In this document: one piece after another, positions 6,846 to 55,063 of the stretch | Position numbering within the stretch: position 1 is the first letter of the stretch | Layout: every line of letters begins with the position of its first letter | IMG/VR virus record: IMGVR_UViG_3300021255_000136 | Coordinates: 1 to 64,000 of that record | From: a virus | Lineage: Duplodnaviria > Caudoviricetes | Length of the DNA stretch: 64,000 nt | Reading direction: 5' to 3' (one strand) | Program-made: the position numbers and the translations under genes | The notes under the pieces: generated by a model | What the model saw: the letters and a program-made list of their open reading frames with translations, nothing else | Told to the model about the DNA's origin: nothing | Database searches by the model: none

Positions 6846-6885
6846 TCGTAGCACCTCTTTCTTCAGATTATAATTAGATCATTAT

Positions 6886-7026
6886 TGACTCAAATAGTGT
6901 AACACGTACTGACTCAAAAAGCAACAACAAATTACAAAAAATTTAAAAAAGAAAGACTCAGAAAAGATCAAATTTCTTGTTGCTTTTTGAATCACCCTGT
7001 GCTATAGTATGACTCAGAACGAATCA
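6886..7026. promoter_or_regulatory. divergent control region with TGAYTC-N5-GARTCA operator sites and a rightward promoter
   Basis: Sites at 6886, 6910, 6978 (inverted) and 7010; TTGCTT-N17-TATAGT at 6980-7008. Confidence 0.7.
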
Positions 7027-7072
7027 AGCGATTGATCTCAACGAGAACAATCAGTGTGAAAGGACAAAAGCA

Positions 7073-7294
7073 ATGACAGTAATACAGGCGATACTCTTCG
7101 CGGTGCTAGGACTTGGAGCCGCAGCGTTCCTTGCCAGTAAGTACCGGAAGACGTACGAGTACATGAGCAACGACAGGTACTGGGAACCGAATGACTGGTA
7201 CCAGACCGAGCCGGGGATGAGCGATGACAGATTGTTCAAGTACCACAAGACCCAGATCCAGTACATCGATCCGAGCCAGACAGAGTGGAGGTAG
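7073..7294 (+). CDS. small membrane-anchored protein (73 aa)
   Basis: N-terminal hydrophobic helix VIQAILFAVLGLGAAAFLA; AAAGGA SD. Confidence 0.7.
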   Translation: MTVIQAILFAVLGLGAAAFLASKYRKTYEYMSNDRYWEPNDWYQTEPGMSDDRLFKYHKTQIQYIDPSQTEWR

Positions 7295-7297
7295 TGT

Positions 7298-7780
7298 ATG
7301 AATAAACCGGGCAGGCCTATTACAGCCGCAAATTACAAGCCAGCACATGACTACACCACTCCCCCTAACCAGATACGGAAGTACAGACTGAAGGCAGGAC
7401 TGTCACAGCAGCAGCTGGCGAACATGGTTGGGCTGTCGAGATGCGGGATAGCCAGTCTGGAGCGGAAGGGAAACAGGCCCCGTGACATGCAGATCATTAA
7501 GGCTATAGCCCTTGTGCTGAAAACTTCGGTGCCTGAGATCCTTGGTCTGGAGCAGGACACACCCTGGGTTGACTCCAACTTCTATCTTCCGAAGCGCGAC
7601 GGGTTCTACTTAGCAGCATTCAGACTGAAGTACAGCACAACACTCCGGTACCTTACCCTCTTCTTTGATGCACTGAACGGTGAGTGGAGATACCTCGATG
7701 GAGCCGGTGGTAAAACAGATGACCGCTTCAATGGCCACGTACTCTACTGGTCCGAGATAGAGAAGCCCATCGGAGAATAA
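7298..7780 (+). CDS. XRE/Cro-like HTH protein with a DUF551-like C-terminal domain
   Basis: IRKYRLKAGLSQQQLANMVGLSRCGIASLERKG; C-terminal WVD...LPKRDGFYL...W. Confidence 0.75.
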   Translation: MNKPGRPITAANYKPAHDYTTPPNQIRKYRLKAGLSQQQLANMVGLSRCGIASLERKGNRPRDMQIIKAIALVLKTSVPEILGLEQDTPWVDSNFYLPKRDGFYLAAFRLKYSTTLRYLTLFFDALNGEWRYLDGAGGKTDDRFNGHVLYWSEIEKPIGE

Positions 7781-31703: not shown

Positions 31704-31748
31704 TAAAAAAAGATACCCCCTACTACATTTCTGTAGTAGGGGGTTTTG
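31704..31748. terminator. bidirectional rho-independent terminator between convergent early and late regions
   Basis: A tract, CCCCCTACTACA-TTTC-TGTAGTAGGGGG, T tract. Confidence 0.9.
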
Positions 31749-31752
31749 TCGT

Positions 31753-34700
31753 TTATTTGCGACGGTTGTTCGTGATCTTTTCGTAGTCCGACCAGTGCAT
31801 GTTGTAGTCGAGTTTTCTTCCGTTAGAGGAGGTGGCTCTTGAAGAACTGCTCTGGGCGGGTGTCGTGGTGGAACTCGCCTGGGTATTGGGCGGGATCACA
31901 AACGGAGTGGTCTGGGTGCCGGATGTTCCGAGATCTCTGGTGAAGTCCAGAGGCTGGCTCATCCAGCGGTTGAAGCCCCAGTTCGGATCTGCCTTATTGG
32001 CGCGATCCTGTTCGTCAGAAACCTTCCTGACGATGCCGAAGTCACGAGCCGTCTGGTTACCGGATGTGGACATACCGGACTTGTGCAGGCTTCCTTCGAA
32101 TGCGGATGCGATCCTGTCGATCATAGCCACTTCCTGATCATCAGTAAGATACTTGGAAGTGAACGCATCGAAGTTCTGCTCCATGTAGTCCATGTATGCT
32201 TCAACACGGTGTGCGCGTTCAACATAGCTGAGAGTGTTGTTCTTTACACTTGTACCGACTTTGCTGGTGTAGCGCTGTTGCAGGAGATCGAACTGCTCCT
32301 CTCTCGTCAGCTTGTCGTTGAACAGCATGGAGAAGAACACATCGTTGCGGCTTGCTGTAACGTCGCGCTTATCTTCATAAGGTATGCTGTTATCGATAAG
32401 CCACCTTGCGTACTTCCCTTCCTCAAGCTTGGCTACAGCATTGTCTAGATCACGGAGAGCACCGGCCTGTTCGTTGAAGGACAGAGCCTTGAATTCGGCG
32501 CTGTTCATCATCTGGATAGCTACATCGATGAATCGCTCCTGTTCATGTCTTGCTTCTGTGTTCTTCTGGTCTGTACTGAGTACCATCTTGTGCCCGATCT
32601 GATCCGGGTTGTCAATGCTGGACGCGCCAGTCATCTTCCCGGCCATCCACCTGACCTGCTCTTCAACAGTAGAGAAGTTGTCCAGCGCGATCTGGTATGC
32701 CTCGGTCCACTTGTATCCGGCCTTTACATCCGCCAGCGCTTCGACTGCGTACTCATCAGCGTCGTCTTCGATGAAGAAGTCTCCATCCTCTCCGGCCTGA
32801 TCAGCGGTCATAGTGAACTGCGTCTTCACCTGCCCGGTTGCAGACAGATTTCGTGCGAAGGCTTCTTCGACCTTAGATGCTGTCGCATTGAATCGGGCTG
32901 CTACTATGGCTTCCCTATCTTCCTCGGTCTCTGCCAGACGGTAGGCGCTGGAGTTCAGGGTTTCCGCATACTCCTTATCCCATGCAGCAGCGAATTCCTT
33001 ATCGAGGTCTCGCTTCTGTGCATCGGTGAGGTTAATGACGAAGCCCTTCTTGTCCGGGTTGTCGATCTTGCTCGGTACAGCATAACTGTCAGCGAGGTAA
33101 GCAGCCTGCTCTGCAACAGTTCCGTCCATGTTGATCGCGACATTGAACTTCTCCTTACCAGCCTGGGATGCTCTGCCAACTTCCATAGCCCTGCTGGAGT
33201 TGTCCAGTATCTCGCTGTACCTCTCCTTCGTAGTCTCACGAGCTCTGTTGTAGGCGTCGTTGATAAGATATCCGCGCTCACGATCATCGGCCTCAGCATA
33301 GTCCTGGCTGTTCTCCAGCTTACGCATCTCTGCTCTGATCTCTTCGTTGAAGATGTCCCGCATCGCCGCCTTGTCCTCATCGGTTATCTCATAGACATAC
33401 CCGACGTTGCCAACACTGGAGAGCTCTCTCGGAGGAGCGAACTCTGCTGACACCATGTCAGCTATCTGCTCGGTAGTAAGGCTCGGAGTTACGGCCAACA
33501 GCTGGAACAGATCGTCATTGGAGTAGGCATTGGGCAGGTTGTACTTCGTGGTGATGTAGTCTGCCGCACCAACCTTCAGTGCTGTCTGCTTGGTCATATC
33601 CAGTGCGTAGTGATCAGATACCGTGTGCCGTCCGAAGTCTTTAGCGATATCGAACGCCTGCTGCATCATAGCCAGCTTCCCTGCGTCGTCTGCCTGGATG
33701 TACACCGGATCGGTCATAACCTCGAAGCAGATCTGGTACGCAGCGCTACCGGCTACTTTCATCAGCTGTTCGAATTCTTCAGCCGTGAGATCCTTCAGCC
33801 CCTCATCCGTTTTGAAGCTCTTGGACAGTTGTTTCGGGATTATGCTGTTATCTCCGGTGGCCTCGTACAGTCTCATGAGCTCTGCGTCTACCGGAGTCTC
33901 GTTGATCACGTTGGCATAACCAGGCGACAGGAAGTTCTCCAGTGCTCTGAGGAACCAGCTGTCATTAGTATCCGTACGGCCCCACGCATCGACATATGCC
34001 ATCTTCTGACTTGCCCAGCCGGGTACCTTGCTCTGGATCGAGTTCTGAACGAACCGCTGCAGAGCTCCGGGCATCGGGCTGTTCTTATCCGTATAGGTCG
34101 CCCTTCTATCCGGGTCTGCCGTTCTGGCGATCTGGCCGAAGAATGTAGGCATACCCTGGGCGAAGTAGCTCGTGGTCATTGCCGCCAGCAAAGCGGAGAT
34201 ACCGTTGACATCAGAGCTGTAGGCCAGTGAGGACAGCGTGTTCTCGAAACCATCCAGCATGGACATTGCCAGCATAGGATCCGCAATACCCATCAGTGCT
34301 GTCCACAGATTGGACGGGGTACTGAGATCAACCTGGCCGCTGACGAGATTATAGATAGTCGCGCCTACGAACAGCGGCATCGACATCGGTGCCATCCAGT
34401 CCATAGTGTAGCTAACTTTCTTCCCGTCTACTGTAAACTCCACTGCCCAGTTCTGATGGCCTTGGAGTTTTTTCATCTTATCCTTATCATCGTCTCCGGT
34501 CCCGCCACCACGGAGTAATCCTGCGGAGGCAAGTAATGCACCGAGGATCATGACGCCGGTACCGGTAAGTCCAGCTGCCATGTTGTCAAGGATCTGCATG
34601 GTGTTGCCGTCGCCATTCTTCAGTGCCGCCTTCAGGTCAACCAGGGACTTGATGAATCCGGGGAGTGAATACTTAGCTGCGCCCAGTACGAGGATGTTGG

Positions 34701-37700: not shown

Positions 37701-40700
37701 TAAAGTCCTTATCATAGATCTCCCACTTCCATTTGCCGTCAACGCCACGGAACCATCCAGTATCTTTCCAGATTTCATCCCGGCTGTATCCAGCTATTTC
37801 CCTCTGCTCAGCTGATTCGAGTTTACCGAGATCAGCGCCTTTTGCAGCTGGGCCAGCGAGGCTAAATCTTTTCTCAATTCTGTCTACTTCATCGCGGACA
37901 GCTTGAGCGCTCTTCCGTTCTTTCTTTGCCGCATCTCTTTCAGCTTTAGTCTGATAAGAGTACGGGAACGGTTCAAGACCTGCCTCTTCACGAGCGGCGT
38001 TTACTTCAGAAAGATATTTTCTGTAGTTAGCTTCAGATAGCCCTGTACCAGTAAGGTCAATTGGAACGCCAACTTCCTGAAGAGCAGAGAGCAAACCGGA
38101 AGGTACAACATTGAAAGGCACACCAAGACCGGGTGCTTCCCTGTCGAGGATCTCCTTGTACTGCTGGGCAACTTCGATGTTGGACAGCTTACGTACCGGC
38201 ATGAGCCACCGAGAAAGATACACATGTCTTTGTGTGTTTTCTAACTGGCTTGCTAGGGAGCCGCTCTTCCAGTCGTGCATACCAACAGCATCTTTTGCAG
38301 TAACAATATCTCCGTCAGAACGAGTTGCCTTTTCAGGATCTGTTACACCGAAGTGATAGCCGCTGGTCAGCTCACTCTTTGGAATGGCGCACATATACGT
38401 TACCAGGTTGGGACGTTTGTACGCAATGGAGAACTGGTCATTGAGAACTACATCGCTAGAGTGCTGGTACGGGTTATACGCAGCCGGTACCACGGAACCA
38501 TCTACGTCGCTCTTCTCAAGTCCATAAGTCCAGGATACTTCACCGGTCTTGTCATTGACTTTCTTACCGAGGCTCTTGGAGTTTGGATTGCCTACTGACT
38601 CTTCCCACACCCCGGGACGGAGAGCATGCGATTGGCTCTTCTTGCCTGTCTCGTCTTTCTGCACACCGGCCATAGGAGCAATAAGATATGGATCTCCGTT
38701 CTCGTCTTCGTACTCAAGGAATGATTTGTATGTGTAAACCACATCACCGTTCTCGAGCTGATCGTTAAGGAAGTTCAGCGTATCTGGATCGGAAACAGCG
38801 ATGGAATACATCGGGTCCATGTCACGCTGTTCAGAAGTTTTATATCGGTCTATCCTTCTATTATCTTCATCAACAGCTTCGTTCTTAGCTGCTATCTGCT
38901 CGTCGTCGAGGAACTGGTTCGGTATATACTTCAAGAAATGCCCGTCCTGAGGATTGACATTTTTAAAGATATCTGCTATACTATATGTAGCTGATACCAG
39001 GGCCGATGCAGGAGTCTTAGATTCCTCCGTCCTCCCCGTGACGTCAGCTTTTATTTTTGCCAACGCGACGGTCATATACAATTTGCCTCCATCATTGGAG
39101 GTATTTTTTATTTCAAATTGTACTGGGACGAGGCTGTTCTCATCTTTGAAAACACTAAGTAAAACCTTTGTGTCTATTAGATTTCGGCTTTCTCGTTTCG
39201 TACCGGCGTATTTATCCGTATGCGCTTCAATTAGAACTGCCGAATTTAATAAGTCATCGATGTTGATTAGCGCTTTTGCAAAGTCTAAGTAAGTCCCGCC
39301 TGTTCTGAGTTGCTTGTGAAGACTCTCCCTTAAACCACCGTTTTTAGAAAACAGAAATTCGATTTCTACTTCAGGAGAGGATAAGGCCCGATTTAGTATT
39401 CCAAGCTTTTCTGCTAACGGATAAATGACTTTCTCCGCTCTGCTCTTGGCTATACTCTCTGCTTCCAGCTCGCTAAGTTCTTCTGCATAGTCCTGAGATT
39501 TTGTATCGACAACAGCAGTAATAGTACGGTCTTTAAGTTCCTCGTAGCGCTCATCTTCGGTCATCCCGGCAGATATAGAATACTGCTTATTGACACCCTC
39601 ACCGTCTTGTGGTATACTATTATTCGACGCTATGGGGTGCCGGGCGAACCAATCTTGGTTTTCGCCATTGAAGTCGATGTTCGGATTATTTCTGGATGTC
39701 GGCTGGAACGCGACTCCCACGGCGTTATTTTTTTGCATCATTGCATGGTACAAAATACTACGACCGTCATCAGCTTGCGCTATGCTCAGGATTACAGGAT
39801 ATATATTCTGCCTGTCCATGACGTAAGCTTTTCTATATTCAAATCCGTTCCTATCCATCCACTGGTGGTTCTCTCTCGGGTCGGTGTCCTGCTCGGAATA
39901 GCCCTCGAACTTGGAGATCTGCACTACTTCCGGAGCGTTGAGGTAGACCATACGAGTCGTGCGGTTCCTGCCTCTACCATACGTTAGCTCTGTCAGAGGA
40001 TGGTGCGCGTTGCCATGCTTTGATACGTCCTTATCTTTGGCATCTGCAAATACAATAGTCTCCGGTACGCCGTAGTCGGATACTGTTCCGATCTCCATAC
40101 CAGCGAAGTTATTCATAACGAAGTTATTAAACTCAGCGTTTCTGAAGTACCTGCTCTTGAGGTCAGTATCCATGTAGACAACTTCGTCATAGGTCTGGCC
40201 GTTAACGTCTACAACATTCTTTGCGACGGAGAACCGCATATCTCGATTACTATCATCAAATCTCTGAGACAGAGGAATAATATTGCCGTCGTCGTCATAT
40301 GTGACTGCGTCGGCTCTTTTTATATTCTCTGCGTTCAGCATGATGTAGGACTCGTTACCGGCGTCTTCCATCTCATTGATGTACCGGATGCTGTCGTAAC
40401 CCAGACCGAGTAAATACTTCTGTGCGGACAGGTTGGCGATTCTTCCGAGGTCATCGAGATCGTCGTCCGTCACTGCCGCGCCTTCAAATTCGCCCTCGTT
40501 GTACAGAGCATCCTGCCAGCGTTGCGCATCCGCTTCGTACTGGTCATACGCCTCGTTCCTTACCAGAGCCTCTTTGAGTTTCTTCGAGTTGGCCTTGGTC
40601 CACTTGGTATTAACAGCGCGTCTCGGAATGTACCCGTCCTCGATCCAGTCATCGACGTCGTCCATCATGTTCTTCAGGGCCATAGGATCGCCCCACACAT

Positions 40701-49700: not shown

Positions 49701-52700
49701 TGATCGTACCAGTGAGCTCTATGCCGGTGATAGCTTTAAATGCATCACGCAGGCCTTGGTCTCTTGCGATCTCTCTGGCTTCCTTAATAGTAACAGAGTC
49801 CTGCTTCCTGTTGAGGATGGCCTTTACACGACTCTCTTCTTCAGTGTCGTCAGGAGATGACGGGAACTTACCGTTCTCATCAGCCTTTGCACGAGGTATA
49901 GCCAGAGGTTGCTGCTGTTCTGCTCTCTCTTCCCCGTGGCGATTCGGTGCTGGCCCTGTAGGTGTTGTGTTTGCGGGAGGAATAATTGCCGGTGCCTGAT
50001 TCTCCTCGGGAGTACTACCTTCCTGTGCAACCGGTGCTGCAGGAGCAGCGGGTGTTGCATTCGCAGGAGGAATAACTGCCGGTGTCTCAGGTGCTGCAGG
50101 AGCCGCGTTTTCAACTGTAGTCGTCTCCGTATCACCAGTGGTTTCTGACGGAGTATACCCAGCCTCTGCTGCGCGTTGTACAGCAGCAGCCACAGGTGTT
50201 ACGGGAGACTCGGCAGCGTACTGCATCATCACCGGGTCTTTGGAATGGTCTAGAACAGAGTTGGTAAAATCTATACCAAGACCGCTTTTCAGCATATCGT
50301 TACCGATCTGCCTGTACGTTTGGTTGGTCTTGCCTTCTCTTACGGCATTACCGAAGCCCATCAGTGCACCACTGGCAAAACTGTCTGTTACAATGTCAGC
50401 GAGTTTTTTCTTTTCTTCCTGCTTCAGGATATACTCGGCTTCTTCTGGAGTAATGTCAGATTCTTGAAGCAGTTCATTCTTTCTGGTGTGATACTCACTT
50501 CTCTCGCCTTCAATCCACTCCGCGATAGCATTTGTGAGTTTTTCTGTATTGAATTCTTCACTGGCCTCAACGAAGCCGGACGTAGACGTTTTTAATACGC
50601 CGTTAACTATATCGTTAAAGAGCCCGTTACTGGAGAGTTCAATATCCGGGATCTTATCGAATATGATATCAAGGGATACAGCTTCACTAAAGCCATCTGC
50701 AAAAGCACTGGCAAGAGCGTATTGGTTGGCTTTATTTACATCTCCGGTACGTGCAAACGATTCTTGGAATGCATTTGCATAAGAAGCGCCGCCATAAGCC
50801 AGTGTCGTATACCCCCAGGAAATAGCTTTTGCTGCGGCTTCTGTAGCCAGCGCGGGAGCTGCAACCCCGGCAACTGATGCAAGAGCGCCAGCCATGCCAA
50901 CAACGTATGTCGATTGCATAGCACTCTGTAAAGCTTTAGGCAATGTAGCCGCTGAAAGTGTAGTCTCACCGAAGAACGGGATATTAATATTTTTCTGCCA
51001 ATGTTCTCCCAGTTCGCCATAAAGCCCGGCATTAACAGCGTCCATAAGTTCCATAACAGTTGGATTAGCATAAATCGGAACTTCGCCGGTACGTTTGGCC
51101 TCATTATAAAATCCGATTGAATCAGTTATGCCAAAGCCTAGAGCTGTTGGTATACCGGTGACAAATATTGAGCCCAGCAGATATGCCGCTCCAGCCGCAT
51201 CGCCCCAGTTGCGCTTCCCGTCGAACAGATTACCGGCCATTGCTGCGGAGAAGTCCTGTACCGCTTTGACTCTGGCCTCATGCGTTTCACCGTCATGGAG
51301 TCTGTTCTGGTCCTTTGCATACTCGAGAGCCGTCTGCAGCTCACCGTTGCCGATGTAGTAGGCATAGGTCTGTAACTCAGTATAAGACCACGTATCATTC
51401 GGGAGTACGTTGCCTACACCGAAACGCGCTATGTACTGTTCCGCTTCTTTCTTCTGAGTATCGGTCAGTCCAGGGATGACATCCAACAAGCCAGTTACGC
51501 CCTTTAGTTGCTGCTGGTATGCCTGCTGCGCGTTTGGATTGATAGTATCTTGATCGATCCTCTTAGATCCGCGAATAGCCATAGCCAAGTCAGCGAATCG
51601 TTCACCGGCTTTTACTTTATCCTGATAATTCTTATCACGCTGGATATCTACGCCATAAACCCCGTGGCCTTGTTCGTCCACGCCGACCTGTACCTGAATA
51701 CCACGGAAAGATTTCTGATAGCCAAGCTCTTCGTTCTTCTGGTCGATGGCCTTCTGATACTCTGGATGTGCTGCGTCAAAATTTGTCCAGAGCGTATTGA
51801 GAGTGGACTCGTTACCGGATTCCCACCAACTCGAGTTAGGCTTATTTCCGTTGCCAAGAAGATAGTTAGCGTACTCTGTTATAGACTGGTTCAGTCTGGC
51901 GTCGTATTGTCCGGACGCCGCAGTATCAAGCAGATAGTTTGCAAAAGCCTGTTCTCTTTCACCAACCAGCCCGCGATTACCGGAAGCGTATTCCGGATAG
52001 GCTTTAAAGAAGTCCATGTCCAGCTGTTCCTGGAACCGACTATTAAGCCCCTTAGCATTTCCAAGTCCGTGCTCCTCTTTCCATTGCTCAGAGAAGTCGG
52101 TGTAATCCGCGTTCCAGTCATCCATGCTGTAGCCGAGTTCTGCTTTTGTCTGGGCAATTATATTCTCCAGACCACGGCCAGAGTTGTCGCTGATAAGGCC
52201 TATTGCCGAGTTGTAATAGTCACGGGCCTTCTGAGTTTGTAATTCATTCTGGAAGAACTTAGCTCTCTTGGTCTGCTCGTCTGTCAGCTTAGTATCGTCT
52301 TGAGAAGAACTATATTTCTTTTTCTCTTCCAGAACTGCTTTCTGCTGAGCAATCAGATCGTTATAGAGCTTTACGTTCTCGTCATTCGGATCTAGGACAT
52401 CATCTATCTGACTATCCAACGCAACGATCTGCTCGTCAAGTTCGTTATACTGTCGCGTCCAGTATGACTCATACAGGGTGTCGCTGATTTCGTTCTGAAG
52501 CTTATCTCTCGCAATGCGGGACTCGGTGAGCGTGTCGTATTTACCGAAATACTCTCCGGTTTCACGATAATGTTTGGCTGCTTCTGAACGGGACAAGTAC
52601 TGCCATTCGCCGTTCTCGTCTTTAACCATAGCCGGGACGTTGACATATTGCCCGTCGTCATAGACCATGTACGCATCGAAAGCATCTTCCAGCTCGATAT

Positions 52701-55044
52701 CGTCGTCTTCCTTGTCCGGTCCGAAACCGACAAAGCGTTCATGAAGATTTATGTTGCCATCGCCGTAGACGACGCCCATTCCGTTCTCCATGGCATTGTA
52801 ATCCGCTACCTGCCGCTGGAGATAATCCGCATATTCCTGCGCAGCTGTCTCCGGATTAGCCGCATAGAGATCGGCCTTCACCTTATTGAGTTCTGCATCC
52901 CACAGCTGTGTGTTTGCATAGTCCAGTGCTTTCTGTAGGAATGCCGGATCGGATTCATCACCGAAGGCTTTTCCGTAACGACGGGTTGCATCCTGCAGTT
53001 GATCGCTTGCATCATTCCTCGCCGTTCTTGCTTCGCCTAATGCCTTCTGTGCTTCGTTCGACGCTGTTATGGAAGCTTCATACTGCTCCCACAGTACATT
53101 ATAATCATCAACCATCTGCTTGGTGATCTGCCACTGCTGGAGACTGTTGAACTTCTCATTCTCTGCTATTATCTTTTCTTCGAGCTCCTTATAGGCAGTG
53201 TACTTGGCGTCGGCATCTGCTTCTAAGGTATCGTATGCCGTAGCCGCAGTATCGTATCTTACCTGGGCTTCATCAAGAAGTTTCTCTGCAGCGGTATCGT
53301 GGTAGTAGTGTGCCTGGTCCTGCTCGATCTGGAATGCATACATTTCTGCGGAAGACTCGCTATCAAACTTGCCAAGCTGTTCGCCTGTAGCCTTGTAGTG
53401 GTCCTCTGCTTCCTTTTGGGATACATGCTTCCACTCCCCATCTACTTCGATCACAGTGGGGATAAGCACGTACTGATCGCCATCCTGGATAACTACAGAG
53501 TCTACAGTAGAGTACGTGCCGTCGACATTCGTCAGTACAGGGCGGGCGTTAAGATCTATGTTACCGCCAGCCGTACCGTAGTCAGCTTCTGTTGATGCAG
53601 GAGTGAAGTACCCAAGAGCAGACTGCAAAGACTCTACAGTAGCCTGCCAATCTTCTACCGTTTCGTTACCAAGGAATGCAGCCTTGATCTTTCTGTCATT
53701 ATTCAGATTCGTTGCAGTATTCAGGTCGTTGGTGTACTGCTCCTCAATACGTTTCCGCTCTGCAACAGCCTCATCAAGATCAGCCTTTGCTTCTTTCTCA
53801 GCGTCCAGTACGCCGAAGTCATACTCCGCGCCGCTGTTCCTATAATTATCTGCGTCGAGATGCGCCTTGTCATATGCGGCCTGTGCCTTATCTACAGCAT
53901 CGTTAGCGGTCTTTATGTCCGCCTGATACTGAGTAGTAAGCGGAGTCGTATCGATCATGTCGTACTGCCGCATTTCATTGTCGTATGCAACGAGAGCATT
54001 GAACAGGCCTTGAATACTAGGCCAGTTTTTGTCAGGATCGCCTTGGGCCAGCTTCTGGATATCCTCAAGAGTATACCCGGCTTCTTCAGCGCCCTTCATT
54101 TCGTCCGTGCCCCACTTGGACCCGAATTCATTTGCATCCGCTAGAACATTAGCCGCCCACTTAATAACTTCTTCGCGCTTCTCAGGAGTGTTGTATTTGT
54201 CGCCCTCATTGACAATGAAGTCAATAACAGCATTAACCTGAGGCGTCATAGCGTCCTGCCATTTTTCGATACCAGTTTTCCCGCCTGGGTCGTTGGTATA
54301 GTTCCGGACATCGCCTTCAAGAACTTCGTCCTCTCCGGTAGGCATTATCCAGTAGTTAGGATCACTCTCTGGGGGGAAAGACCTGCCGCCATTCTGGAAG
54401 TACTTCTCATATCTGGCCTGCTCTGCGGCATTAGCCTGAGCAATCTGGTCGGCTTCTTTCTTCTTTTCTTCGGAGAAAGTATCACCGTCCATATTCGCCA
54501 CGACGTTCTTGAGCCAGTCGGGCCAGGTATCCATACCTTCCATGATCTTCTCGCCGTTCGACTCCGTGGCTTTCTCGGTCTGAGATTCAGTGGCCTTCTC
54601 CCCTGCGTGGCTGGCAGCTTCAGTATTCTTGGTCTCTTCTGGCTGCGTTACAGTATTATCCTCAGTCTCTTCCTGGATTGGAGTTTCTGGAGCAGACGTC
54701 TCGGTATTGGAAACCTCTGATCCGTCCCCATCGTAAGAGTCATCGATAGGATTAGTATTAGAAGGGGTATCTGTTTCCCATGAATAATTATCGCTATCAT
54801 TCGAACCGTTATCACTTGGGAAAAGAGTCTCCGGCGCATTAGATGGGTCATAAGAATTCGTAATCGGATTAATCTTATCCGTACTGTTATAATCCGCAGT
54901 TGGGGTATACGAGTCCGCCCGGTCCATTGCGTCGTAGTCTATATCATACGACTTCGTCTCAGGAGTTGGAGTTACGGAAGGTACTGATATATTATGGTTA
55001 CCAAAATCTTTTTCTTTACCTAGTTCATCTTTTACTAGCGCCAT
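31753..55044 (-). CDS. giant polyvalent protein (7763 aa), probably virion-packaged and injected
   Basis: Uninterrupted ORF with AAAAGGAG SD; two ART-PolyVal-like domains (HGS/HGT...GYDG/GYDS), two HExxH sites (HEISH, HEIQH), LPD3-, LPD23- and LPD38-like segments recognised by motif. Confidence 0.92.
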   Translation of the reverse strand: MALVKDELGKEKDFGNHNISVPSVTPTPETKSYDIDYDAMDRADSYTPTADYNSTDKINPITNSYDPSNAPETLFPSDNGSNDSDNYSWETDTPSNTNPIDDSYDGDGSEVSNTETSAPETPIQEETEDNTVTQPEETKNTEAASHAGEKATESQTEKATESNGEKIMEGMDTWPDWLKNVVANMDGDTFSEEKKKEADQIAQANAAEQARYEKYFQNGGRSFPPESDPNYWIMPTGEDEVLEGDVRNYTNDPGGKTGIEKWQDAMTPQVNAVIDFIVNEGDKYNTPEKREEVIKWAANVLADANEFGSKWGTDEMKGAEEAGYTLEDIQKLAQGDPDKNWPSIQGLFNALVAYDNEMRQYDMIDTTPLTTQYQADIKTANDAVDKAQAAYDKAHLDADNYRNSGAEYDFGVLDAEKEAKADLDEAVAERKRIEEQYTNDLNTATNLNNDRKIKAAFLGNETVEDWQATVESLQSALGYFTPASTEADYGTAGGNIDLNARPVLTNVDGTYSTVDSVVIQDGDQYVLIPTVIEVDGEWKHVSQKEAEDHYKATGEQLGKFDSESSAEMYAFQIEQDQAHYYHDTAAEKLLDEAQVRYDTAATAYDTLEADADAKYTAYKELEEKIIAENEKFNSLQQWQITKQMVDDYNVLWEQYEASITASNEAQKALGEARTARNDASDQLQDATRRYGKAFGDESDPAFLQKALDYANTQLWDAELNKVKADLYAANPETAAQEYADYLQRQVADYNAMENGMGVVYGDGNINLHERFVGFGPDKEDDDIELEDAFDAYMVYDDGQYVNVPAMVKDENGEWQYLSRSEAAKHYRETGEYFGKYDTLTESRIARDKLQNEISDTLYESYWTRQYNELDEQIVALDSQIDDVLDPNDENVKLYNDLIAQQKAVLEEKKKYSSSQDDTKLTDEQTKRAKFFQNELQTQKARDYYNSAIGLISDNSGRGLENIIAQTKAELGYSMDDWNADYTDFSEQWKEEHGLGNAKGLNSRFQEQLDMDFFKAYPEYASGNRGLVGEREQAFANYLLDTAASGQYDARLNQSITEYANYLLGNGNKPNSSWWESGNESTLNTLWTNFDAAHPEYQKAIDQKNEELGYQKSFRGIQVQVGVDEQGHGVYGVDIQRDKNYQDKVKAGERFADLAMAIRGSKRIDQDTINPNAQQAYQQQLKGVTGLLDVIPGLTDTQKKEAEQYIARFGVGNVLPNDTWSYTELQTYAYYIGNGELQTALEYAKDQNRLHDGETHEARVKAVQDFSAAMAGNLFDGKRNWGDAAGAAYLLGSIFVTGIPTALGFGITDSIGFYNEAKRTGEVPIYANPTVMELMDAVNAGLYGELGEHWQKNINIPFFGETTLSAATLPKALQSAMQSTYVVGMAGALASVAGVAAPALATEAAAKAISWGYTTLAYGGASYANAFQESFARTGDVNKANQYALASAFADGFSEAVSLDIIFDKIPDIELSSNGLFNDIVNGVLKTSTSGFVEASEEFNTEKLTNAIAEWIEGERSEYHTRKNELLQESDITPEEAEYILKQEEKKKLADIVTDSFASGALMGFGNAVREGKTNQTYRQIGNDMLKSGLGIDFTNSVLDHSKDPVMMQYAAESPVTPVAAAVQRAAEAGYTPSETTGDTETTTVENAAPAAPETPAVIPPANATPAAPAAPVAQEGSTPEENQAPAIIPPANTTPTGPAPNRHGEERAEQQQPLAIPRAKADENGKFPSSPDDTEEESRVKAILNRKQDSVTIKEAREIARDQGLRDAFKAITGIELTGTIKNMADQIRSAKAGLAAEVKNGSSEAEGVSENAPEVTKEELTPEQQKYNENYDNLVKLNQEQTGLEDRLEKLQQNGRAATIFSTIARTGKKVPTIFGNGVAYEKQLANGKNIHIEFADGDKHHLFPRAFIYNGDGTITGFNAGAKGKTQTFKSQAEYVASYNYKQEDGIDQTIEKIGNANKDVADILNGWYDSAVEKLQNKLNDVRGKYNDAMQYLLAHTSDAPSVTSGATSETTGTTTEEATAPVEPASVDQTPASPITEQAPEVAEAEQQNEAPATPVIPTKEQFDDQQNSGKEDASAPGKDKKPIDLTGKTKAERIAGLEEAQNNVYNASDKFTRLNDAKDAFALFSMMDQAKDVDHWTNSNNFGYEWTLADGTVIHVDSPYDLRALAESGFSREEIDKQRKKYFNGGLDKATKAPTDVAVEAWINFSDGTTIDLGDAGNRKKGVSEKTDYATLWYGIDFVLHELNKHSETKSFVDEAMGNFETMRQQAETERNDARQYLKDYRAAMADSSNGKQYSVGKDTKQEQSTVDGTELSRNGEPSADTQKGEPLRVQNPQDTTTDTETATEGTTARTHTEGTPTPGPTEGNGETDYRGFDKGEQAREITSLAQDIRNRWNSRMQAVAENGTRIQAEIAEIYERMKNNQSRPNDASRLKYLEQQQANNTAKTGDIARDIGKLALMVREFDPGMFNAIVLENGEGMFKTMPNWFFNAVNEFDHEARQNTESMAYLYAKTQNPNSIVLSDIGTTLHDKYGLDAGTAADVQSFLEGILKGSARITYKSIQEFAAQDFMKDYNTRNAIYNYILNTVGQQSEDLLKVIQTGDINDVLNNTWKFFRLANANIEQREARSAGISQNNEREYRGQQQMNRSMGYTQGSYGPTPTPVHANDNLAQLMQARQQAQLGGTNNPNIEAFRMDVIPPANTSMPGAATENRAPRVQSSKTTTKTESKAAQPAPRLDPQTRIASYQASIPQSAKDVAGRQIKIGRRTYNVYSYYNMRHAQNSNVTLDVAAKEFKLILDGAGQNAAINWVAKTEGTDTGAAVVKKGDKADTTEKPKNPKEQKVKNLDEELEKKLGAREVHPRSWEDKVRLNPSFPWKTRREFVESEVSKGKSAEEAHLQFDMMMDRAANDTFGTMEVEYGITVTKPDRTASNKTAEKAKSTKSEPKKSTSKKSAPKTQTAPQPFRVPNVGATVESTQREIASLTSERDRIYNDPKGNAERLQEVERKLAAAQEDLATLQSRHGGTDNDIRPNDSTPAERSVNPDDSGAAGTVSAGQVGSAESEAQNSGGGEGISGAEESSDGRDLRGRRVNATLLDLSGEKKRDTIEYNHGFVVYDSFSDDESVLTNEERSAVRRAQSAGVERVFFVDADGLYSLIRDENGKVINRTPFDGVVFNNHGMDTMIINVNRDIKNAHHEISHEMLKKLNDAERSKYLKKAIGAIFKGKKSLFDRLYDYYSGLYKDAYANKSPEEFEQAVLNEMYADLVNGIDRMSWMHGVSLIQSDMPTYQRLAQKFELDNKLVEYATSEAAQTQDYSDFVKGKQYSLSQPVTMDGDNVAEDNQGASLSRGQLEYFKGSRVRDNLGRLLKLWHGSITHATQNIFDPQWAADHLSFFAVDDPRIAGSYSGTMREVNPMREMTEVPGIEEMDDNELGDFLAKRAEEETGYSDGYGRVFVENELYDNVENLYTLAHSLDTLMALAPYSKDFLNAAQRIRNLMEAAAGDADNYFEGVIEQAKIARDHLPEIAEIAPSLKRFIDKIMNQLEEELDNFEYLYDELYDAYENNESVFEFDGEMVSREDAIELAQQFAPPTVEDFTTRGNRPLYANLKNPYIYDAEGGIWSRLSDKDGIRAYLERIGNPKQQENFLFREDIPGTMTTNGVVNWAHAHGYDGVIFRNIEDVGGKDDGTLDGTLATIVVGFESNQFKDPDNKNPTNDPDFRFSISSAQDWYENATEDERKVEMASIRTFGITSNYRHGGYIIPQGQMLNFSGSHELRPQDRQTYEKFQENRTVDHREIANVYKSVGIDVGTNMQDKGMVEFMRQGNIRMQPEAPGVHLFKTTAPTTEQLATIEKYIEWAQQNRRVHGSDTFMVDIMDDNGNNAESKTFKLGQSADDITDEIAYYYEHGSFKRKYVSPFAMFFSLSVDDWKDSTRSSTVKVVDAATEIFGTTPYFCYGGYITPYGDMLDFSGIDQQMDSLLAMGEPAEEVEEMRTWMKNNPNGMRTGGATHSTVEKAYKQSGVKLLPDNNNYRSDFIERGNVRIAAEGPAIEASAGAELTDVQCEKLLDYIKWVFSHKDWPGSSQWAKDPKLTVEINGGYGTTFYDFSTSPESIVMDIKEKAASPKKNYVSNLSMFFSLSSGASEIETNGDSANKLYSLSTWNASDYVTDREKAITALVEQLGVTYEQAEKWVDDVNSVAKMIAEDKGRLDYKDTGKSPFVSNAEYGGSFDFTTLCKKRRLLTGTFSAIQNALPNTVLTPFDVLSIRAMMDDAGLEVSCGKCYVEGSRATMGIFTKEFLKLYEKYHPGEWVPNMAQMNTPDGIEWVRQNHPEVYEEYEYFWNHYGTLRKGDKNLFASQQKPKLYQMRSAYKGEIRQHFEDADMIREKNRNGGIRMQSFSDFEIVHLIDAMQVITDMSRVGLQGQAYTKVPDFAWALGDTGLKINLSIDAWSVDENGKLVFNNKEGMNFDTAMELRNAYPRNVGTICCVYDDAQLLAALADDRIDFIIPFHRSQWKKAQYKAMGLPATTKDYTYQQNEKWLNPKEHTHKWQGRDVPTKCTNYMPNEYWDFSKSGKENAEKYLGMCARDGKRPKFYKFLTDNKDGSYSLKEDGSTDGYWKLLIDFKMYDNNGNGSPQLPVRPIFNMDQVNRMLNSYDENPNVFPVAHGIVDKFVAQYKEQHPGMQYSLSKSDQQYMDAVKSDDMETAQAMVEKAAKKAGYKKEAFHGTQSFGFNEFRMISANELGVHFGTRAAAEAFYNNLYNNLGDNPGIYDVYLKMENTLRTPDVWGDPMALKNMMDDVDDWIEDGYIPRRAVNTKWTKANSKKLKEALVRNEAYDQYEADAQRWQDALYNEGEFEGAAVTDDDLDDLGRIANLSAQKYLLGLGYDSIRYINEMEDAGNESYIMLNAENIKRADAVTYDDDGNIIPLSQRFDDSNRDMRFSVAKNVVDVNGQTYDEVVYMDTDLKSRYFRNAEFNNFVMNNFAGMEIGTVSDYGVPETIVFADAKDKDVSKHGNAHHPLTELTYGRGRNRTTRMVYLNAPEVVQISKFEGYSEQDTDPRENHQWMDRNGFEYRKAYVMDRQNIYPVILSIAQADDGRSILYHAMMQKNNAVGVAFQPTSRNNPNIDFNGENQDWFARHPIASNNSIPQDGEGVNKQYSISAGMTEDERYEELKDRTITAVVDTKSQDYAEELSELEAESIAKSRAEKVIYPLAEKLGILNRALSSPEVEIEFLFSKNGGLRESLHKQLRTGGTYLDFAKALINIDDLLNSAVLIEAHTDKYAGTKRESRNLIDTKVLLSVFKDENSLVPVQFEIKNTSNDGGKLYMTVALAKIKADVTGRTEESKTPASALVSATYSIADIFKNVNPQDGHFLKYIPNQFLDDEQIAAKNEAVDEDNRRIDRYKTSEQRDMDPMYSIAVSDPDTLNFLNDQLENGDVVYTYKSFLEYEDENGDPYLIAPMAGVQKDETGKKSQSHALRPGVWEESVGNPNSKSLGKKVNDKTGEVSWTYGLEKSDVDGSVVPAAYNPYQHSSDVVLNDQFSIAYKRPNLVTYMCAIPKSELTSGYHFGVTDPEKATRSDGDIVTAKDAVGMHDWKSGSLASQLENTQRHVYLSRWLMPVRKLSNIEVAQQYKEILDREAPGLGVPFNVVPSGLLSALQEVGVPIDLTGTGLSEANYRKYLSEVNAAREEAGLEPFPYSYQTKAERDAAKKERKSAQAVRDEVDRIEKRFSLAGPAAKGADLGKLESAEQREIAGYSRDEIWKDTGWFRGVDGKWKWEIYDKDFTIRPAVLDQEWNAAIQSSLGNAENYRSEYKLPEVLRNAGMLFANYPDLKNYTVVFTEMPSNVRGEFDPSSFTITIALDDLVGYLSEAERDVRSTLMHEIQHAIQYMEGFASGSNLEAWDDQIDVNGKRVPYTPKDRAKKALEAMKLYIPADGLNRLYAMAETRNEMLHLTLQDFQKNGQLYYEKKREDYQKELLWAIGEYGLGEVADFLSNYDLSQSRNRSHKNDSDYDLYRNTAGEIEARDVQSRLEWGAERRRRNAPKYSRDAIFNTVNSWGVAGSYSLSIDPNAAYDAFGDEVEISNTNPTDLTQSELSPNLYYSDDTAYYQLDSGETVVMENVGGDSPEAQYINYLEAMNNANSTDRTTTQPYTIPPANRDVDTGYRLREQDAGLRRGTEEVPAQDQEGTSRRTGDNGELYEQSQPQSEAQEGVSKQFSVGFENPMRENATGDQTFTFRNASGQQITTLDTFPINSFEYNYLLNANQNDPFKLEDIVNEYVNRNGPQALADSFERLKGVVDYADDLTEEKKEQLHKAIDSAIKKYGKLPKGRGDKKDDVHLPKKSADNTAVRKHMQTVAANVENEHLTERMLYEGMTNELLGYTPQSNARSIRLARSILSNRFNGNFDQAMNTFSAMVESGELPRAEWIALAELLIQEFSSDPNTYDKAVKVAADLSILGTNLGQAVQAMSIIKKATPQGQLYYINGVINHLNATYAKRIENPKNKMQRITLNQELAERLMAATSRQEISDIMELIKKDIADQIPATIMDKWNAWRYLAMLGNPRTHIRNFVGNAAFMPAVFMKDLILRRLEQIPGIIDPEYKMHVPGAELTGWVGLFGKESDNTYVRFAQRDYATMQDVVAGKRTGNKFNDISDILNKRDIFGWAPLDKLSKKNGEFLEKSDFAFQKRYYVRALAEALQAQGVSEEDLLKAMEVGEENSEEPTIFNTREGREMLNKARQYATMQAQRDTYHELNTFAMALNRFKSTSGPIGNVLMEGLLPFVSTPANILVLGAAKYSLPGFIKSLVDLKAALKNGDGNTMQILDNMAAGLTGTGVMILGALLASAGLLRGGGTGDDDKDKMKKLQGHQNWAVEFTVDGKKVSYTMDWMAPMSMPLFVGATIYNLVSGQVDLSTPSNLWTALMGIADPMLAMSMLDGFENTLSSLAYSSDVNGISALLAAMTTSYFAQGMPTFFGQIARTADPDRRATYTDKNSPMPGALQRFVQNSIQSKVPGWASQKMAYVDAWGRTDTNDSWFLRALENFLSPGYANVINETPVDAELMRLYEATGDNSIIPKQLSKSFKTDEGLKDLTAEEFEQLMKVAGSAAYQICFEVMTDPVYIQADDAGKLAMMQQAFDIAKDFGRHTVSDHYALDMTKQTALKVGAADYITTKYNLPNAYSNDDLFQLLAVTPSLTTEQIADMVSAEFAPPRELSSVGNVGYVYEITDEDKAAMRDIFNEEIRAEMRKLENSQDYAEADDRERGYLINDAYNRARETTKERYSEILDNSSRAMEVGRASQAGKEKFNVAINMDGTVAEQAAYLADSYAVPSKIDNPDKKGFVINLTDAQKRDLDKEFAAAWDKEYAETLNSSAYRLAETEEDREAIVAARFNATASKVEEAFARNLSATGQVKTQFTMTADQAGEDGDFFIEDDADEYAVEALADVKAGYKWTEAYQIALDNFSTVEEQVRWMAGKMTGASSIDNPDQIGHKMVLSTDQKNTEARHEQERFIDVAIQMMNSAEFKALSFNEQAGALRDLDNAVAKLEEGKYARWLIDNSIPYEDKRDVTASRNDVFFSMLFNDKLTREEQFDLLQQRYTSKVGTSVKNNTLSYVERAHRVEAYMDYMEQNFDAFTSKYLTDDQEVAMIDRIASAFEGSLHKSGMSTSGNQTARDFGIVRKVSDEQDRANKADPNWGFNRWMSQPLDFTRDLGTSGTQTTPFVIPPNTQASSTTTPAQSSSSRATSSNGRKLDYNMHWSDYEKITNNRRK
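36417..36638 (-). CDS. nested +1-frame small protein inside the giant gene (73 aa)
   Basis: GGAGG 9 nt before ATG; amphipathic helical sequence; host frame is a polar linker. Confidence 0.55.
   Translation of the reverse strand: MPTVLTEPQRNLIQYLLQIGMSILDIVSVNRMLAYDEERKKFLRRIKKEHLDAQETMENCMNRVNRRVKRRKV
45768..45959 (-). CDS. nested +1-frame small protein inside the giant gene (63 aa)
   Basis: GGAGG 8 nt before ATG 45959; protein-like composition ending DEIFGDDE; host frame is a G/S/E linker. Confidence 0.6.
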   Translation of the reverse strand: MIFDRMIVRLPNGASIPMTQEQLELYQQGKWDPLNPKPRTAEEEKEYQGRKKALMDEIFGDDE

Positions 55045-55063
55045 TACGCATTATCTCCTTTTA

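What the first reader, a model, noticed from the sequence alone, without database searches (positions are those of the whole stretch)
31753..55044. 23.3-kb gene encoding a 7763-aa polyvalent protein
It takes up 36% of the window. Modules are separated by short 'QYSL/RFS/MFFSL' linkers. From N to C: acidic leader, duplicated GNI(D/N)L domain, helical region, HEISH zincin site, ART-like domain 1, two copies of an unknown domain, GP88-like domain, ART-like domain 2, two BECR/LPD3-like domains, a YNPYxHSS domain, LPD23-like + HEIQH peptidase, and an LPD38-like end. Established: polyvalent proteins of phages and plasmids are proposed to be delivered into the host with anti-defence effectors. Its position in the late operon after a Q/N/A-rich protein suggests an injected, proteolytically processed toolkit.
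Basis: partly seen in the sequence, partly recalled or inferred. Interest (0 to 1): 0.72.

Follow-up and report, generated by a model that had tools for sequence, protein, structure and literature searches.

The report
Giant polyvalent protein of gut phage
One intact gene fills 29% of a complete 81-kb gut phage genome and encodes an 868-kDa "polyvalent" protein, a string of enzyme modules on a conserved membrane-type C-terminal module, probably packed in the virion and ejected into the host; the class is known, but this is the longest of its detectable relatives and several modules are uncatalogued.

Summary
Window 31753-55044 (minus strand) is one uninterrupted 7763-codon ORF with a Shine-Dalgarno site and a strong terminator. 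It lies in a complete 81.4-kb temperate phage that looks like a podovirus (P22-type portal, no tape measure).

It is a phage-type polyvalent protein (Iyer et al. 2017). This scan met the same class before on other DNA (e1-3451095).

Supported module calls:
- two ART-PolyVal domains with the H-Y-D residues, the first split by a ~195-aa insert
- LPD23
- the duplicated GNIDL domain and the duplicated unknown domain

Not supported by the family models: LPD38, MPTase, PBECR3, LPD3 (below cut-off) and GP88.

New here:
- Residues ~6300-7150 form an ~850-aa helical module with hydrophobic segments. No Pfam, PHROG or NCBIfam family matched it and no PDB relative was found. It occurs in 5399 cluster representatives, nearly always near the C-terminus behind variable effector arrays, mostly in gut Clostridia prophages.
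- The "GP88-like" module has a radical-SAM-like fold with a non-canonical Cys triad. It is 69-80% identical in the best 120 of 1243 other polyvalent proteins.
- A junction motif, [DEN]x[RKQ][FY]S, marks module borders across the family.
- A conserved partner gene lies directly upstream.

Virion packaging, ejection and proteolytic processing remain inferred.

The parts
31753..55044 (-). Giant ORF: 7763 aa, 868.5 kDa, pI 4.76
55055..55060 (-). Shine-Dalgarno AAGGAG, 10 nt upstream of the ATG
31715..31744 (.). Bidirectional intrinsic terminator (13-bp stem) that ends the late operon
55064..57151 (-). Upstream partner gene: 695-aa Q/N/A-rich protein, member of a conserved gene family that directly precedes polyvalent giants
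54415..55044 (-). Acidic, disorder-like leader (residues 1-210: 48 D+E against 14 K+R)
53290..53565 (-). GNIDL domain, copy 1 (residues 494-585). Also found at the C-end of two relatives and in a 3165-aa protein of the PF10145 tape-measure family
52411..52758 (-). GNINL domain, copy 2 (residues ~763-878)
50065..51297 (-). N-terminal hydrophobic module (residues 1250-1660; helices ~1286-1307 and 1378-1399), shared with 12 relatives
45055..45777 (-). HEISH region (residues 3090-3330; HExxH at 3197), shared with 9 relatives; no peptidase family matched
43879..45069 (-). ART-PolyVal copy 1 (residues 3326-3722). HMM positions 1-46 align to residues 3362-3408 and 55-139 to 3603-3714, with a ~195-aa insert between. 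H3372, Y3406, D3671
43279..43881 (-). Unknown domain U1 (residues 3722-3922), present in 25 relatives
42637..43281 (-). Unknown domain U2 (residues 3922-4136), paralogue of U1
40996..42579 (-). Radical-SAM-like (GP88-like) module (residues 4156-4683); invariant Cys 4234, 4277, 4280, 4582
40228..40998 (-). ART-PolyVal-like copy 2 (residues 4683-4939); H4722, D4884
39577..40230 (-). Module B1 (residues 4939-5156): unassigned, shared with 4 relatives
38803..39579 (-). Module B2 (residues 5156-5414) with a sub-threshold LPD3 match at residues 5221-5323
37861..38805 (-). YNPYxHSS module (residues 5414-5728), present in 25 relatives; 94% identical to the copy in P0002
36862..37863 (-). LPD23 (residues 5728-5783) plus the HEIQH region (HExxH at 5878); PHROG 21376
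33535..36177 (-). Conserved C-terminal core (residues 6290-7170): all-alpha with hydrophobic helices (6769-6787, 6826-6844 and others); no catalogued family
31756..33534 (-). C-terminal tail (residues 7171-7763), shared with about 8 close relatives; ends in a disorder-like S/T-rich stretch

Best explanation
The gene encodes a phage-type polyvalent protein that doubles as an internal virion (ejection) protein of a temperate, podovirus-like phage of gut Clostridia.

Proposed mechanism; only step 1's gene layout (operon position, RBS, terminator, adjacent partner gene) was observed here, and the expression timing and steps 2-4 are inferred:
1. It is made late, from the end of the virion operon, together with the Q/N/A-rich partner protein encoded just upstream.
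2. It is packed inside the capsid.
3. On infection it leaves through the portal and tail. The ~850-aa helical C-terminal core, and perhaps the N-terminal hydrophobic module, insert into the host membrane as part of the DNA conduit.
4. The effector modules carried by the chain act on host targets before any phage gene is expressed. These modules are two ART-PolyVal ADP-ribosyltransferases with intact H-Y-D sites, a radical-SAM-like enzyme, two HExxH regions, LPD23 and several unknown domains.

Modules are exchangeable cassettes, separated by a short conserved junction motif ([DEN]x[RKQ][FY]S; here mostly [KM][QRF][FY]S[LIV][SAG]). The motif may be a cleavage site or a hand-off site. Whether the chain is cut, and by what, is unknown.
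For: Class:
- LPD23 scores 65 bits. ART-PolyVal is over the cut-off in copy 1.
- Both ART copies converge on Pfam-defined ART-PolyVal segments in relatives, with the H-Y-D residues defined by Iyer et al. conserved.
- 72 relatives of 4.3-7.4 kaa carry ART-PolyVal, LPD3, LPD23, LPD38, PBECR and C5-methylase domains in shuffled order.

Phage type:
- P22-type portal, large terminase, collagen-like fibres and no tape measure.

Virion association by synteny:
- In seven fetched relatives the giant lies inside the morphogenesis module: next to the P22/SU10-type portal, between tail genes and lysis genes, or after lysis next to the integrase, as here.
- Loci bearing the core repeat the orders 'portal-121aa-731aa-334aa-giant' and 'gp53-like fibre-410aa-giant'.

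Core module:
- 5399 cluster representatives match it. In 74 genomic loci it sits 4-457 aa from the C-terminus, behind 17 to more than 3300 variable residues.
- The AF2 model (pLDDT 73.8, pTM 0.64) is all-alpha, and several hydrophobic helices are seen in the sequence.
- In BFVD, after its own homologues, it matches proteins annotated 'internal virion protein' in Pelagibacter and Synechococcus podoviruses (E 1e-10 to 1e-13, TM 0.33-0.44).

Precedent and other links:
- Podovirus phi24B packs a 2.8-kaa LPD5/LPD1/LPD38/MuF-C polyvalent protein, shown by virion proteomics (bioRxiv 10.64898/2026.04.10.717836). That gene is likewise the last late gene and follows a 421-aa protein.
- The GNIDL domain also occurs in a protein of the tape-measure family.
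- A partner gene upstream is conserved in 44 of 48 contexts.
- Junction motif statistics.
Against: - There is no direct evidence of packaging, ejection or cleavage for this protein or for any protein with this core.
- The core has no detectable sequence or fold relative among solved structures. Its BFVD matches to internal virion proteins are modest for long helical proteins and rest on others' annotations.
- It shows no homology to the phi24B protein.
- A position after the lysis cassette, at the prophage end, is also typical of lysogenic-conversion genes.
- A 987-aa stand-alone core survives next to an integrase and a repressor in a Firmicute chromosome without any virion genes.
- The models tried (MPTase-PolyVal, LPD38) find nothing, and the Pfam scan shows no MuF or portal domain.
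- Junction-motif density does not correlate with zincin modules in the same protein.
- A single chain of 868 kDa is far larger than any protein shown to be packaged.
Confidence: 0.62

Rival explanations
1. The protein is not packaged. It is a lysogenic-conversion or late-expressed membrane protein, for example a superinfection-exclusion, competition or toxin-display factor. The hydrophobic modules would anchor it in the host membrane, where its enzymes act in or from the producing cell.
For: The gene sits after holin and endolysin, at the very end of the late operon and convergent with other genes. The same layout lies next to the integrase in L087 and in L005/L022. A stand-alone core is kept in a minimal integrase-repressor island, beside an ADP-ribosylglycohydrolase and without virion genes. 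Hydrophobic helices are present.
Against: In most fetched relatives the giant is embedded among portal, capsid and fibre genes, with further late genes downstream. The phi24B protein with the same end-of-operon layout is an abundant virion protein. The leader is acidic rather than signal-like, and no defence-system model matches. ART-PolyVal and LPD domains are those of proteins thought to be delivered with the DNA (PMC5512222).
Confidence: 0.17
2. The protein is mainly a structural conduit protein, a tape-measure-like or needle-like ejection scaffold. Its enzyme-like modules would be decayed or only structural, so it delivers no effector activity.
For: About 2900 N-terminal residues are helical or disordered with no enzyme signature. 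The GNIDL domain is shared with a protein of the PF10145 tape-measure family. The zincin regions match no peptidase family.
Against: The catalytic H-Y-D positions of both ART copies are conserved. The radical-SAM-like module is 69-80% identical across the best 120 of 1243 proteins, with invariant Cys and polar residues, which indicates strong purifying selection on an active site.
Confidence: 0.12
3. The long ORF is an assembly chimera of several genes or phages.
For: The assembly is a short-read metagenome with recombining cassettes. One module is 94% identical to its copy in another giant, while the flanks are below 40%.
Against: A second assembler gives one contig with no differences across 20 kb at even depth. 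The genome closes on itself. The frame stays open for 23.3 kb. Independent assemblies give colinear relatives of 5-7.4 kaa with the same C-terminal 1600 aa.
Confidence: 0.02

Closest known systems
Phage-type polyvalent proteins (Iyer, Burroughs, Anand, de Souza, Aravind 2017, PMC5512222)
   Same: Many unrelated effector-type domains lie in one polypeptide: ART-PolyVal in several copies, LPD domains and HExxH regions. The gene is encoded among late or virion genes. The predicted role is delivery with the DNA.
   Different: That paper describes 2-15 domains per protein; this one has about 17 modules in 7763 aa. The C-terminal 850-aa core, the radical-SAM-like module and the junction motif were not found in the text searches of that paper. 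No MuF, portal, LPD38 or MPTase domain was detected here.
phi24B gp47 / vb_24B_48 (2807 aa; LPD5, LPD1, LPD38, MuF-C), bioRxiv 10.64898/2026.04.10.717836
   Same: It is a polyvalent giant of a temperate podovirus. It is the last gene of the late region and follows a ~400-aa protein. Proteomics detects it in virions, and the authors propose it as an ejection protein.
   Different: It shows no detectable homology to the core or to other modules here. The host is Gram-negative, and the protein is a third of the size.
Ejection / internal virion proteins of podoviruses (T7 gp14-16, P22 gp7/16/20, N4 gp50-52)
   Same: They are large, helical, membrane-inserting proteins stored in the capsid. N4 also delivers an enzyme of 3500 aa. 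The core matches predicted structures of 'internal virion proteins' of marine T7-like phages at fold level.
   Different: No sequence similarity was found, and no match to any solved ejection-protein structure. Here the conduit-like part is fused to a long effector array.
Radical SAM superfamily and Pfam GP88 (PF17338), for residues 4156-4683
   Same: The partial TIM-barrel fold resembles them: the top 23 PDB matches are all radical SAM enzymes (spore photoproduct lyase Z 7.3 over 239 aa, QueE 6.9, PFL-AE 6.6, viperin 6.4). An invariant Cys sits in the loop after the first strand, followed by CxxC-Tyr. Language-model features point to GP88. Three motifs are colinear with this phage's own GP88 gene.
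   Different: The canonical CX3CX2C is replaced by C-x42-CxxC. All Z scores are below 8. The Pfam GP88 model does not match the giant. No biochemistry is known for GP88.
Earlier finding of this scan, e1-3451095 (3674-aa giant in a 40.5-kb gut Clostridia phage)
   Same: It belongs to the same class, the same host group and a phage without a tape measure. It shares sequence words with the enzyme-like module.
   Different: This protein is twice as long, in an 81-kb genome, and carries the C-terminal core. Whether that protein has the core was not checked here.

Membership tests
Phage-type polyvalent protein (Iyer et al. 2017) | Two or more unrelated effector-type domains in one polypeptide | tested here: met
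   ART-PolyVal, LPD23, a radical-SAM-like module and two HExxH regions
Phage-type polyvalent protein (Iyer et al. 2017) | Encoded by a phage among late or virion genes | tested here: met
   The gene is the end of the late operon after fibres and lysis genes. Relatives lie inside morphogenesis modules
Phage-type polyvalent protein (Iyer et al. 2017) | Delivered into the host with the DNA | not testable with these tools
   Needs virion proteomics and infection assays
ART-PolyVal (PF18760) | Match to the family model above its cut-off (31.2 bits) | tested here: met
   Copy 1 scores 24.8 + 10.9 bits and 39.9 bits when summed in frame. Copy 2 is not found by the model itself. It is linked only by iterated profiles to Pfam-defined segments of P0015, P0029 and P0033
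ART-PolyVal (PF18760) | H (strand 1), Y (strand 2), D (strand 5) active site (PMC5512222) | tested here: met
   Copy 1: H3372, Y3406, D3671. Copy 2: H4722 and D4884 lie in conserved columns, and its Tyr is probably Y4754 but was not resolved
LPD23 (PF18838) | Match above the cut-off of 27 bits | tested here: met
   65 bits, E 5e-18, residues 5728-5783
LPD3 (PF18798) | Match above the cut-off of 27 bits | tested here: not met
   15.9 and 18.6 bits at residues 5221-5323. The other proposed copy has no match and does not resemble the first
LPD38 (PF18857) | Match to the family model | tested here: not met
   No match at E <= 10 in the phage's own genome. That search's control also matched nothing in any control genome. 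The profile-profile link of core residues 6841-6955 to the LPD38 region of P0029 has only 20% probability
MPTase-PolyVal (PF18818) | Match to the family model | tested here: not met
   No match; only the HEISH and HEIQH motifs are present
PBECR nucleases | Match to a PBECR model | tested here: inconclusive
   PBECR3 (PF18812) gives no match, and the Pfam scan at E <= 0.1 shows none. The other PBECR models were not run singly
GP88 (PF17338) | Match above the cut-off of 24.4 bits | tested here: not met
   The model matches the stand-alone gene at genome 78692-79147 (65.8 bits) but not the giant. Language-model features (0.94, 30 of 30 hits) and colinear motifs are leads only
Radical SAM superfamily | Partial (beta/alpha)6 barrel fold | tested here: inconclusive
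   AF2 model pLDDT 85.3, pTM 0.84. The top 23 VIA matches are all radical SAM enzymes but have Z 5.3-7.3, below the tool's caution line of 8
Radical SAM superfamily | CX3CX2C cluster motif | tested here: not met
   The invariant Cys are spaced C4234-x42-C4277-xx-C4280
Radical SAM superfamily | [4Fe-4S] cluster and reductive cleavage of SAM | not testable with these tools
   Needs anaerobic biochemistry
Podovirus internal virion / ejection proteins | Fold or sequence relation to known members | tested here: inconclusive
   BFVD matches to annotated internal virion proteins have E 1e-10 to 1e-13 and TM 0.33-0.44. Nothing was found in the PDB by Foldseek, VIA or profile search
Podovirus internal virion / ejection proteins | Presence in the virion and release on infection | not testable with these tools
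   Needs proteomics or cryo-EM

The most novel reading that the evidence does not exclude
The ~850-aa C-terminal core defines a very large, uncatalogued family: a 'delivery chassis' of podovirus-like phages of gut Clostridia. Any number of effector cassettes can be hung on it. The [DEN]x[RKQ][FY]S junction motif would then be the signal at which the chain is cut or released after ejection. The most conserved cargo would be an oxygen-sensitive, radical-SAM-like enzyme delivered ready-made from the virion into anaerobic hosts. That would be a new type of injected effector chemistry.
Probability: 0.3. Interest if true: 0.78.

Novelty: new variant of a known kind. Interest (0 to 1): 0.56.

Why it matters
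Polyvalent proteins are thought to be the first weapons a phage brings into a cell, yet almost none has been studied. This one and its relatives take up 27-35% of their phage genomes, so they must be central to infection of abundant gut Clostridia.

The work gives four concrete handles:
- A C-terminal module that no Pfam, PHROG or NCBIfam model matched, present in thousands of protein clusters. It could serve to find such proteins and to test how very large cargo is packed and ejected.
- A strongly conserved radical-SAM-like cargo enzyme of unknown chemistry.
- A short junction motif that can be tested directly as a processing site.
- Cultured hosts carrying prophages with the same core, which makes experiments possible: Massiliimalia, Lawsonibacter, Dielma, Agathobaculum, Yeguia and Ligaoa.

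Tried and rejected
- Prp protease as the enzyme acting at the motif. Relatives that encode a phage Prp show the classical LxLF site at the N-ends of their capsid and scaffold proteins, but their giants have no strict motif. This phage has no Prp gene and no such capsid N-end. Rejected.
- In-cis zincins as the cutting enzymes. Motif density is the same with and without LPD23-peptidase or HEISH modules, and it does not correlate with HExxH count. No support.
- The motif as a DNA-level recombination signal. Codons differ between the 13 sites. Rejected.
- Homology of the core to the phi24B giant. hmmsearch gave a negligible hit (E 0.008, 0.2 bits) and hhalign gave 0.1% probability.
- PDB relatives of the core. 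Foldseek gave none, VIA-wide gave only generic helical matches with Z < 7, and the profile search gave none.
- Whole-protein scans. Pfam found only LPD23. PHROGs found one family of unknown function. NCBIfam, PADLOC and the PDB sequence search found nothing.
- GenBank phages. megablast found nothing. tblastn gave only short LPD23-region hits. The core found nothing significant even at E 5 (one 81-aa hit at E = 4).
- IMG/VR pattern scan with the C-terminal 1551 aa: no relative.
- B1 vs B2, and HEISH vs HEIQH, as paralogues: not similar.
- BLASTP of the 695-aa partner against the 359-aa partner of L005 was not significant; the link appears only through profiles. The single 31-aa hit that tied the phi24B 421-aa protein to the partner cluster was judged spurious.
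- No RNA holder was listed among public runs, so expression could not be examined.
- Two look-ups failed on the 5000-residue limit, and one locus came without DNA.
Full report
**The object.** Window 31753-55044 (minus strand) is a single ORF of 7763 codons. It encodes an acidic protein of 868.5 kDa, pI 4.76. AAGGAG lies 10 nt before the ATG, which follows the stop of the upstream gene by 19 nt. A 13-bp-stem bidirectional terminator lies 8 nt after the stop and separates the gene from convergent plus-strand genes. The window is part of a one-contig genome of 81,433 bp with a 97-bp terminal overlap, classed as complete. The gene therefore takes 28.6% of the phage. A second assembly of the probable source run covers 33001-53000 in one 26.4-kb contig without a difference, and another sample of the same study holds near-identical fragments. 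The identical protein is on record from two contigs. I see no sign of misassembly, although long reads were not available.

**The phage.** The minus-strand late operon runs from about 77 kb down to the giant. It holds a T4-type large terminase, a P22-type portal, an acidic scaffold-like protein and a capsid gene interrupted by a GIY-YIG/NUMOD3 ORF. These are followed by two proteins of 212 and 768 aa, collagen-like fibres and an NlpC/P60 plus PG_binding endolysin. The operon ends with a 695-aa Q/N/A-rich protein and the giant. No tape measure is present. An integrase, an SNF2 helicase and a primase-helicase lie on the other strand. This is a temperate, podovirus-like phage. Prophages with the same C-terminal module are almost all in gut Clostridia (Oscillospiraceae, Acutalibacteraceae and others), which is the likely host group.

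**What the standard libraries see.** Pfam recognises only LPD23 (65 bits) and a weak LPD3 signal. PHROGs gives one family of unknown function. NCBIfam, PADLOC and PDB sequences give nothing. GenBank phages hold almost nothing similar. In contrast, the large protein collection holds 72 relatives of 4.3-7.4 kaa, none longer than this one. They are often on contigs of ~80 kb and carry ART-PolyVal, LPD3, LPD23, LPD38, PBECR and C5-methylase domains. Local BLAST and iterated profile searches against them show that the protein is a chain of cassettes, which relatives carry in other orders and combinations. One cassette (residues 5406-5731) is 94% identical in P0002, whose other shared parts are 26-39% identical. 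That indicates recent cassette exchange.

- *ART domain 1.* It matches Pfam ART-PolyVal when the model is run on the phage alone. HMM positions 1-46 align to residues 3362-3408 and positions 55-139 to residues 3603-3714. The sum is 39.9 bits against a cut-off of 31.2, so the domain is split by a ~195-aa insert.
- *ART domain 2.* The model itself does not find it. Profiles started from either copy land on the Pfam-defined ART-PolyVal segments of P0015, P0029 and P0033.
- *Active site.* Iyer et al. define the family by H, Y and D. H3372, Y3406 and D3671 in copy 1, and H4722 and D4884 in copy 2, sit in the conserved columns.
- *Duplications.* The GNIDL pair (E 1.5e-14) and the U1/U2 pair (E 3e-18) are true duplications.
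- *Peptidase sites.* HEISH and HEIQH are the only two HExxH motifs, and MPTase-PolyVal does not match either.
- *LPD3.* It stays below its cut-off (18.6 bits). The second supposed copy has no support.
- *PBECR3 and LPD38.* The models find nothing. In the LPD38 search the control genomes also matched nothing.

**The C-terminal core.** Residues ~6060-7730 are the one part that is colinear and C-terminal in the ten closest relatives. An exhaustive search with residues 6214-7400 found 5399 cluster representatives (2911 at E <= 1e-30). The match is almost always to query residues ~6300-7150 and lies at the C-end of proteins of 850 to 7100 aa. None of nine short members has a Pfam domain over this part. 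Their N-terminal additions are ART-PolyVal, MuF_C or LPD3. In 74 genomic loci the module ends 4-457 aa before the stop and is preceded by 17 to more than 3300 residues. An AF2 model built on 21 sequences (pLDDT 73.8, pTM 0.64) is all-helical, and the sequence shows several hydrophobic helices. It has no relative among solved structures. Among predicted viral structures it first finds its own gut-virome homologues. It then finds proteins annotated as internal virion proteins of Pelagibacter and Synechococcus podoviruses (E 1e-10 to 1e-13, TM 0.33-0.44) and marine 'large polyvalent protein associated domain' proteins. A profile-profile comparison aligns core residues 6841-6955 with the LPD38 region of P0029, but at only 20% probability. 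I read the core as a separate, uncatalogued family that may be a distant relative of LPD38.

**The most conserved cargo.** Residues 4156-4683 occur in 54 of the 72 giants and in 1243 shorter polyvalent proteins. The best 120 of those are 69-80% identical and mostly lie on ~43-kb contigs. An eight-sequence alignment shows invariant C4234, C4277, C4280 and C4582 and many invariant polar residues. The AF2 model is good (pLDDT 85.3, pTM 0.84). All of the 23 best PDB matches are radical SAM enzymes, including spore photoproduct lyase (Z 7.3 over 239 aa), QueE, PFL-activase and viperin. The Z values are below the level at which the tool advises trust. Weak BFVD matches are again radical SAM, Fe-S and GP88 proteins. 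The Pfam GP88 model hits a stand-alone gene of this phage (genome 78569-79411) and not the giant. The two share three colinear motifs (CxxCY, R-x-h-x-x-[SG]-DF, YTKV) without statistical support, and language-model features place the module with GP88. It is best described as a radical-SAM-like, GP88-related enzyme with a C-x42-CxxC arrangement. Its activity is unknown.

**The junction motif.**
- In this protein, [KRQMLF][YF]S[LIV][SAG] occurs 13 times against 0.43 expected, and homology blocks end at it.
- The codons differ between sites, so selection acts on the peptide.
- The ART-PolyVal family ends in a conserved D-[IM]-R-F-S.
- In 323 large relatives, D.R[FY]S occurs 179 times against 21.6 expected. 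Scrambled control patterns are not enriched.
- In an all-against-all comparison of the 72 giants, alignment starts and ends fall within 12 aa of [DEN].[RKQ][FY]S six times more often than at random, with peaks directly at the motif.
- I found no mention of it in the 2017 paper or elsewhere in the searchable library.
- Its function is open. A Prp-type protease and the in-cis zincins are not supported.

**Context and mechanism.** Seven relatives fetched with flanks all lie in the virion modules of temperate phages with a P22/SU10-type portal. They sit beside the portal, between tail genes and lysis genes, or after lysis next to the integrase, as here. Core-bearing loci repeat orders such as portal-121-731-334-giant. 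The gene directly upstream belongs, in 44 of 48 contexts, to three profile-linked groups of Q/N-rich proteins. The 695-aa protein here matches those of L008 and L009 at E 4e-38. Compositional bias may inflate the weaker links. A published proteomic study of podovirus phi24B found its 2.8-kaa LPD38/MuF-C polyvalent protein abundant in virions and proposed it as an ejection protein. In the phi24B genome that gene is also the last late gene, behind a 421-aa protein, although it is not homologous to this one. Together with the 2017 proposal, this makes packaging and ejection the best explanation (about 0.6). The main rival is a non-packaged membrane or conversion factor. It is favoured by the post-lysis position and by a stand-alone core kept in an integrase island without virion genes.

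**Verdict.** The class is known, and this scan has met it before (e1-3451095). This example is the longest among its detectable relatives. It exposes three features that I could not find described: the core family, the radical-SAM-like cargo and the junction motif.

Noticed in passing
genome 78569-79411 (+), outside the window (L002:16569-17411): A stand-alone 280-aa GP88-family gene (PF17338, 65.8 bits) lies in the early region of the same phage. The phage may therefore carry this enzyme type twice, once free and once, much diverged, inside the giant.
   Followed up: partly
window 55064-57151 (-): The 695-aa Q/N/A-rich protein belongs to a family of genes that directly precede polyvalent giants in 44 of 48 contexts, whether or not the giant carries the core. 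It is probably a functional partner.
   Followed up: partly
L003:6135-12964: A ~7-kb island in a spore-forming Firmicute chromosome holds an integrase, an ADP-ribosylglycohydrolase, an HTH repressor, a 119-aa ORF and a stand-alone 987-aa core protein, with no virion genes. It may be a prophage remnant or a sign of a virion-independent role. The glycohydrolase could counter ADP-ribosylation.
   Followed up: no
L095:2943-13253: In a 42-kb relative the 3436-aa giant (LPD38 on record for the protein) sits between a 426-aa gene and the scaffold and capsid genes, where a portal gene would be expected. No separate portal gene is called nearby, so the portal may be fused into the giant.
   Followed up: no
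L086:1842-4130 and L001:2066-4440: L086 encodes a phage Prp peptidase right after the portal; L001 has a 113-aa ORF in the same place whose N-terminus resembles it, without a Pfam hit on record. In both, the scaffold and capsid proteins start with the LxLF-type Prp site. The window's phage has neither.
   Followed up: yes
window 37861-38805 (-), residues 5406-5731: This cassette is 94% identical to its copy in P0002, a 6128-aa giant on an 81.7-kb contig. The rest of the two proteins is 26-39% identical, which points to recent cassette transfer between related phages.
   Followed up: partly
genome 68218-68925 (-), outside the window (L002:6218-6925): A GIY-YIG/NUMOD3 homing-endonuclease ORF lies inside the capsid gene region. 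This fits the intron-split capsid gene noted by another reader.
   Followed up: no
window 31715-31744: A perfect 13-bp-stem hairpin with T-runs on both strands serves as a shared terminator for the convergent late and plus-strand units.
   Followed up: yes
L074:13388-22555 (-): In one Oscillospiraceae contig a second open frame of 3055 aa lies convergent to the 3400-aa core-bearing giant, so two giant genes are adjacent.
   Followed up: no
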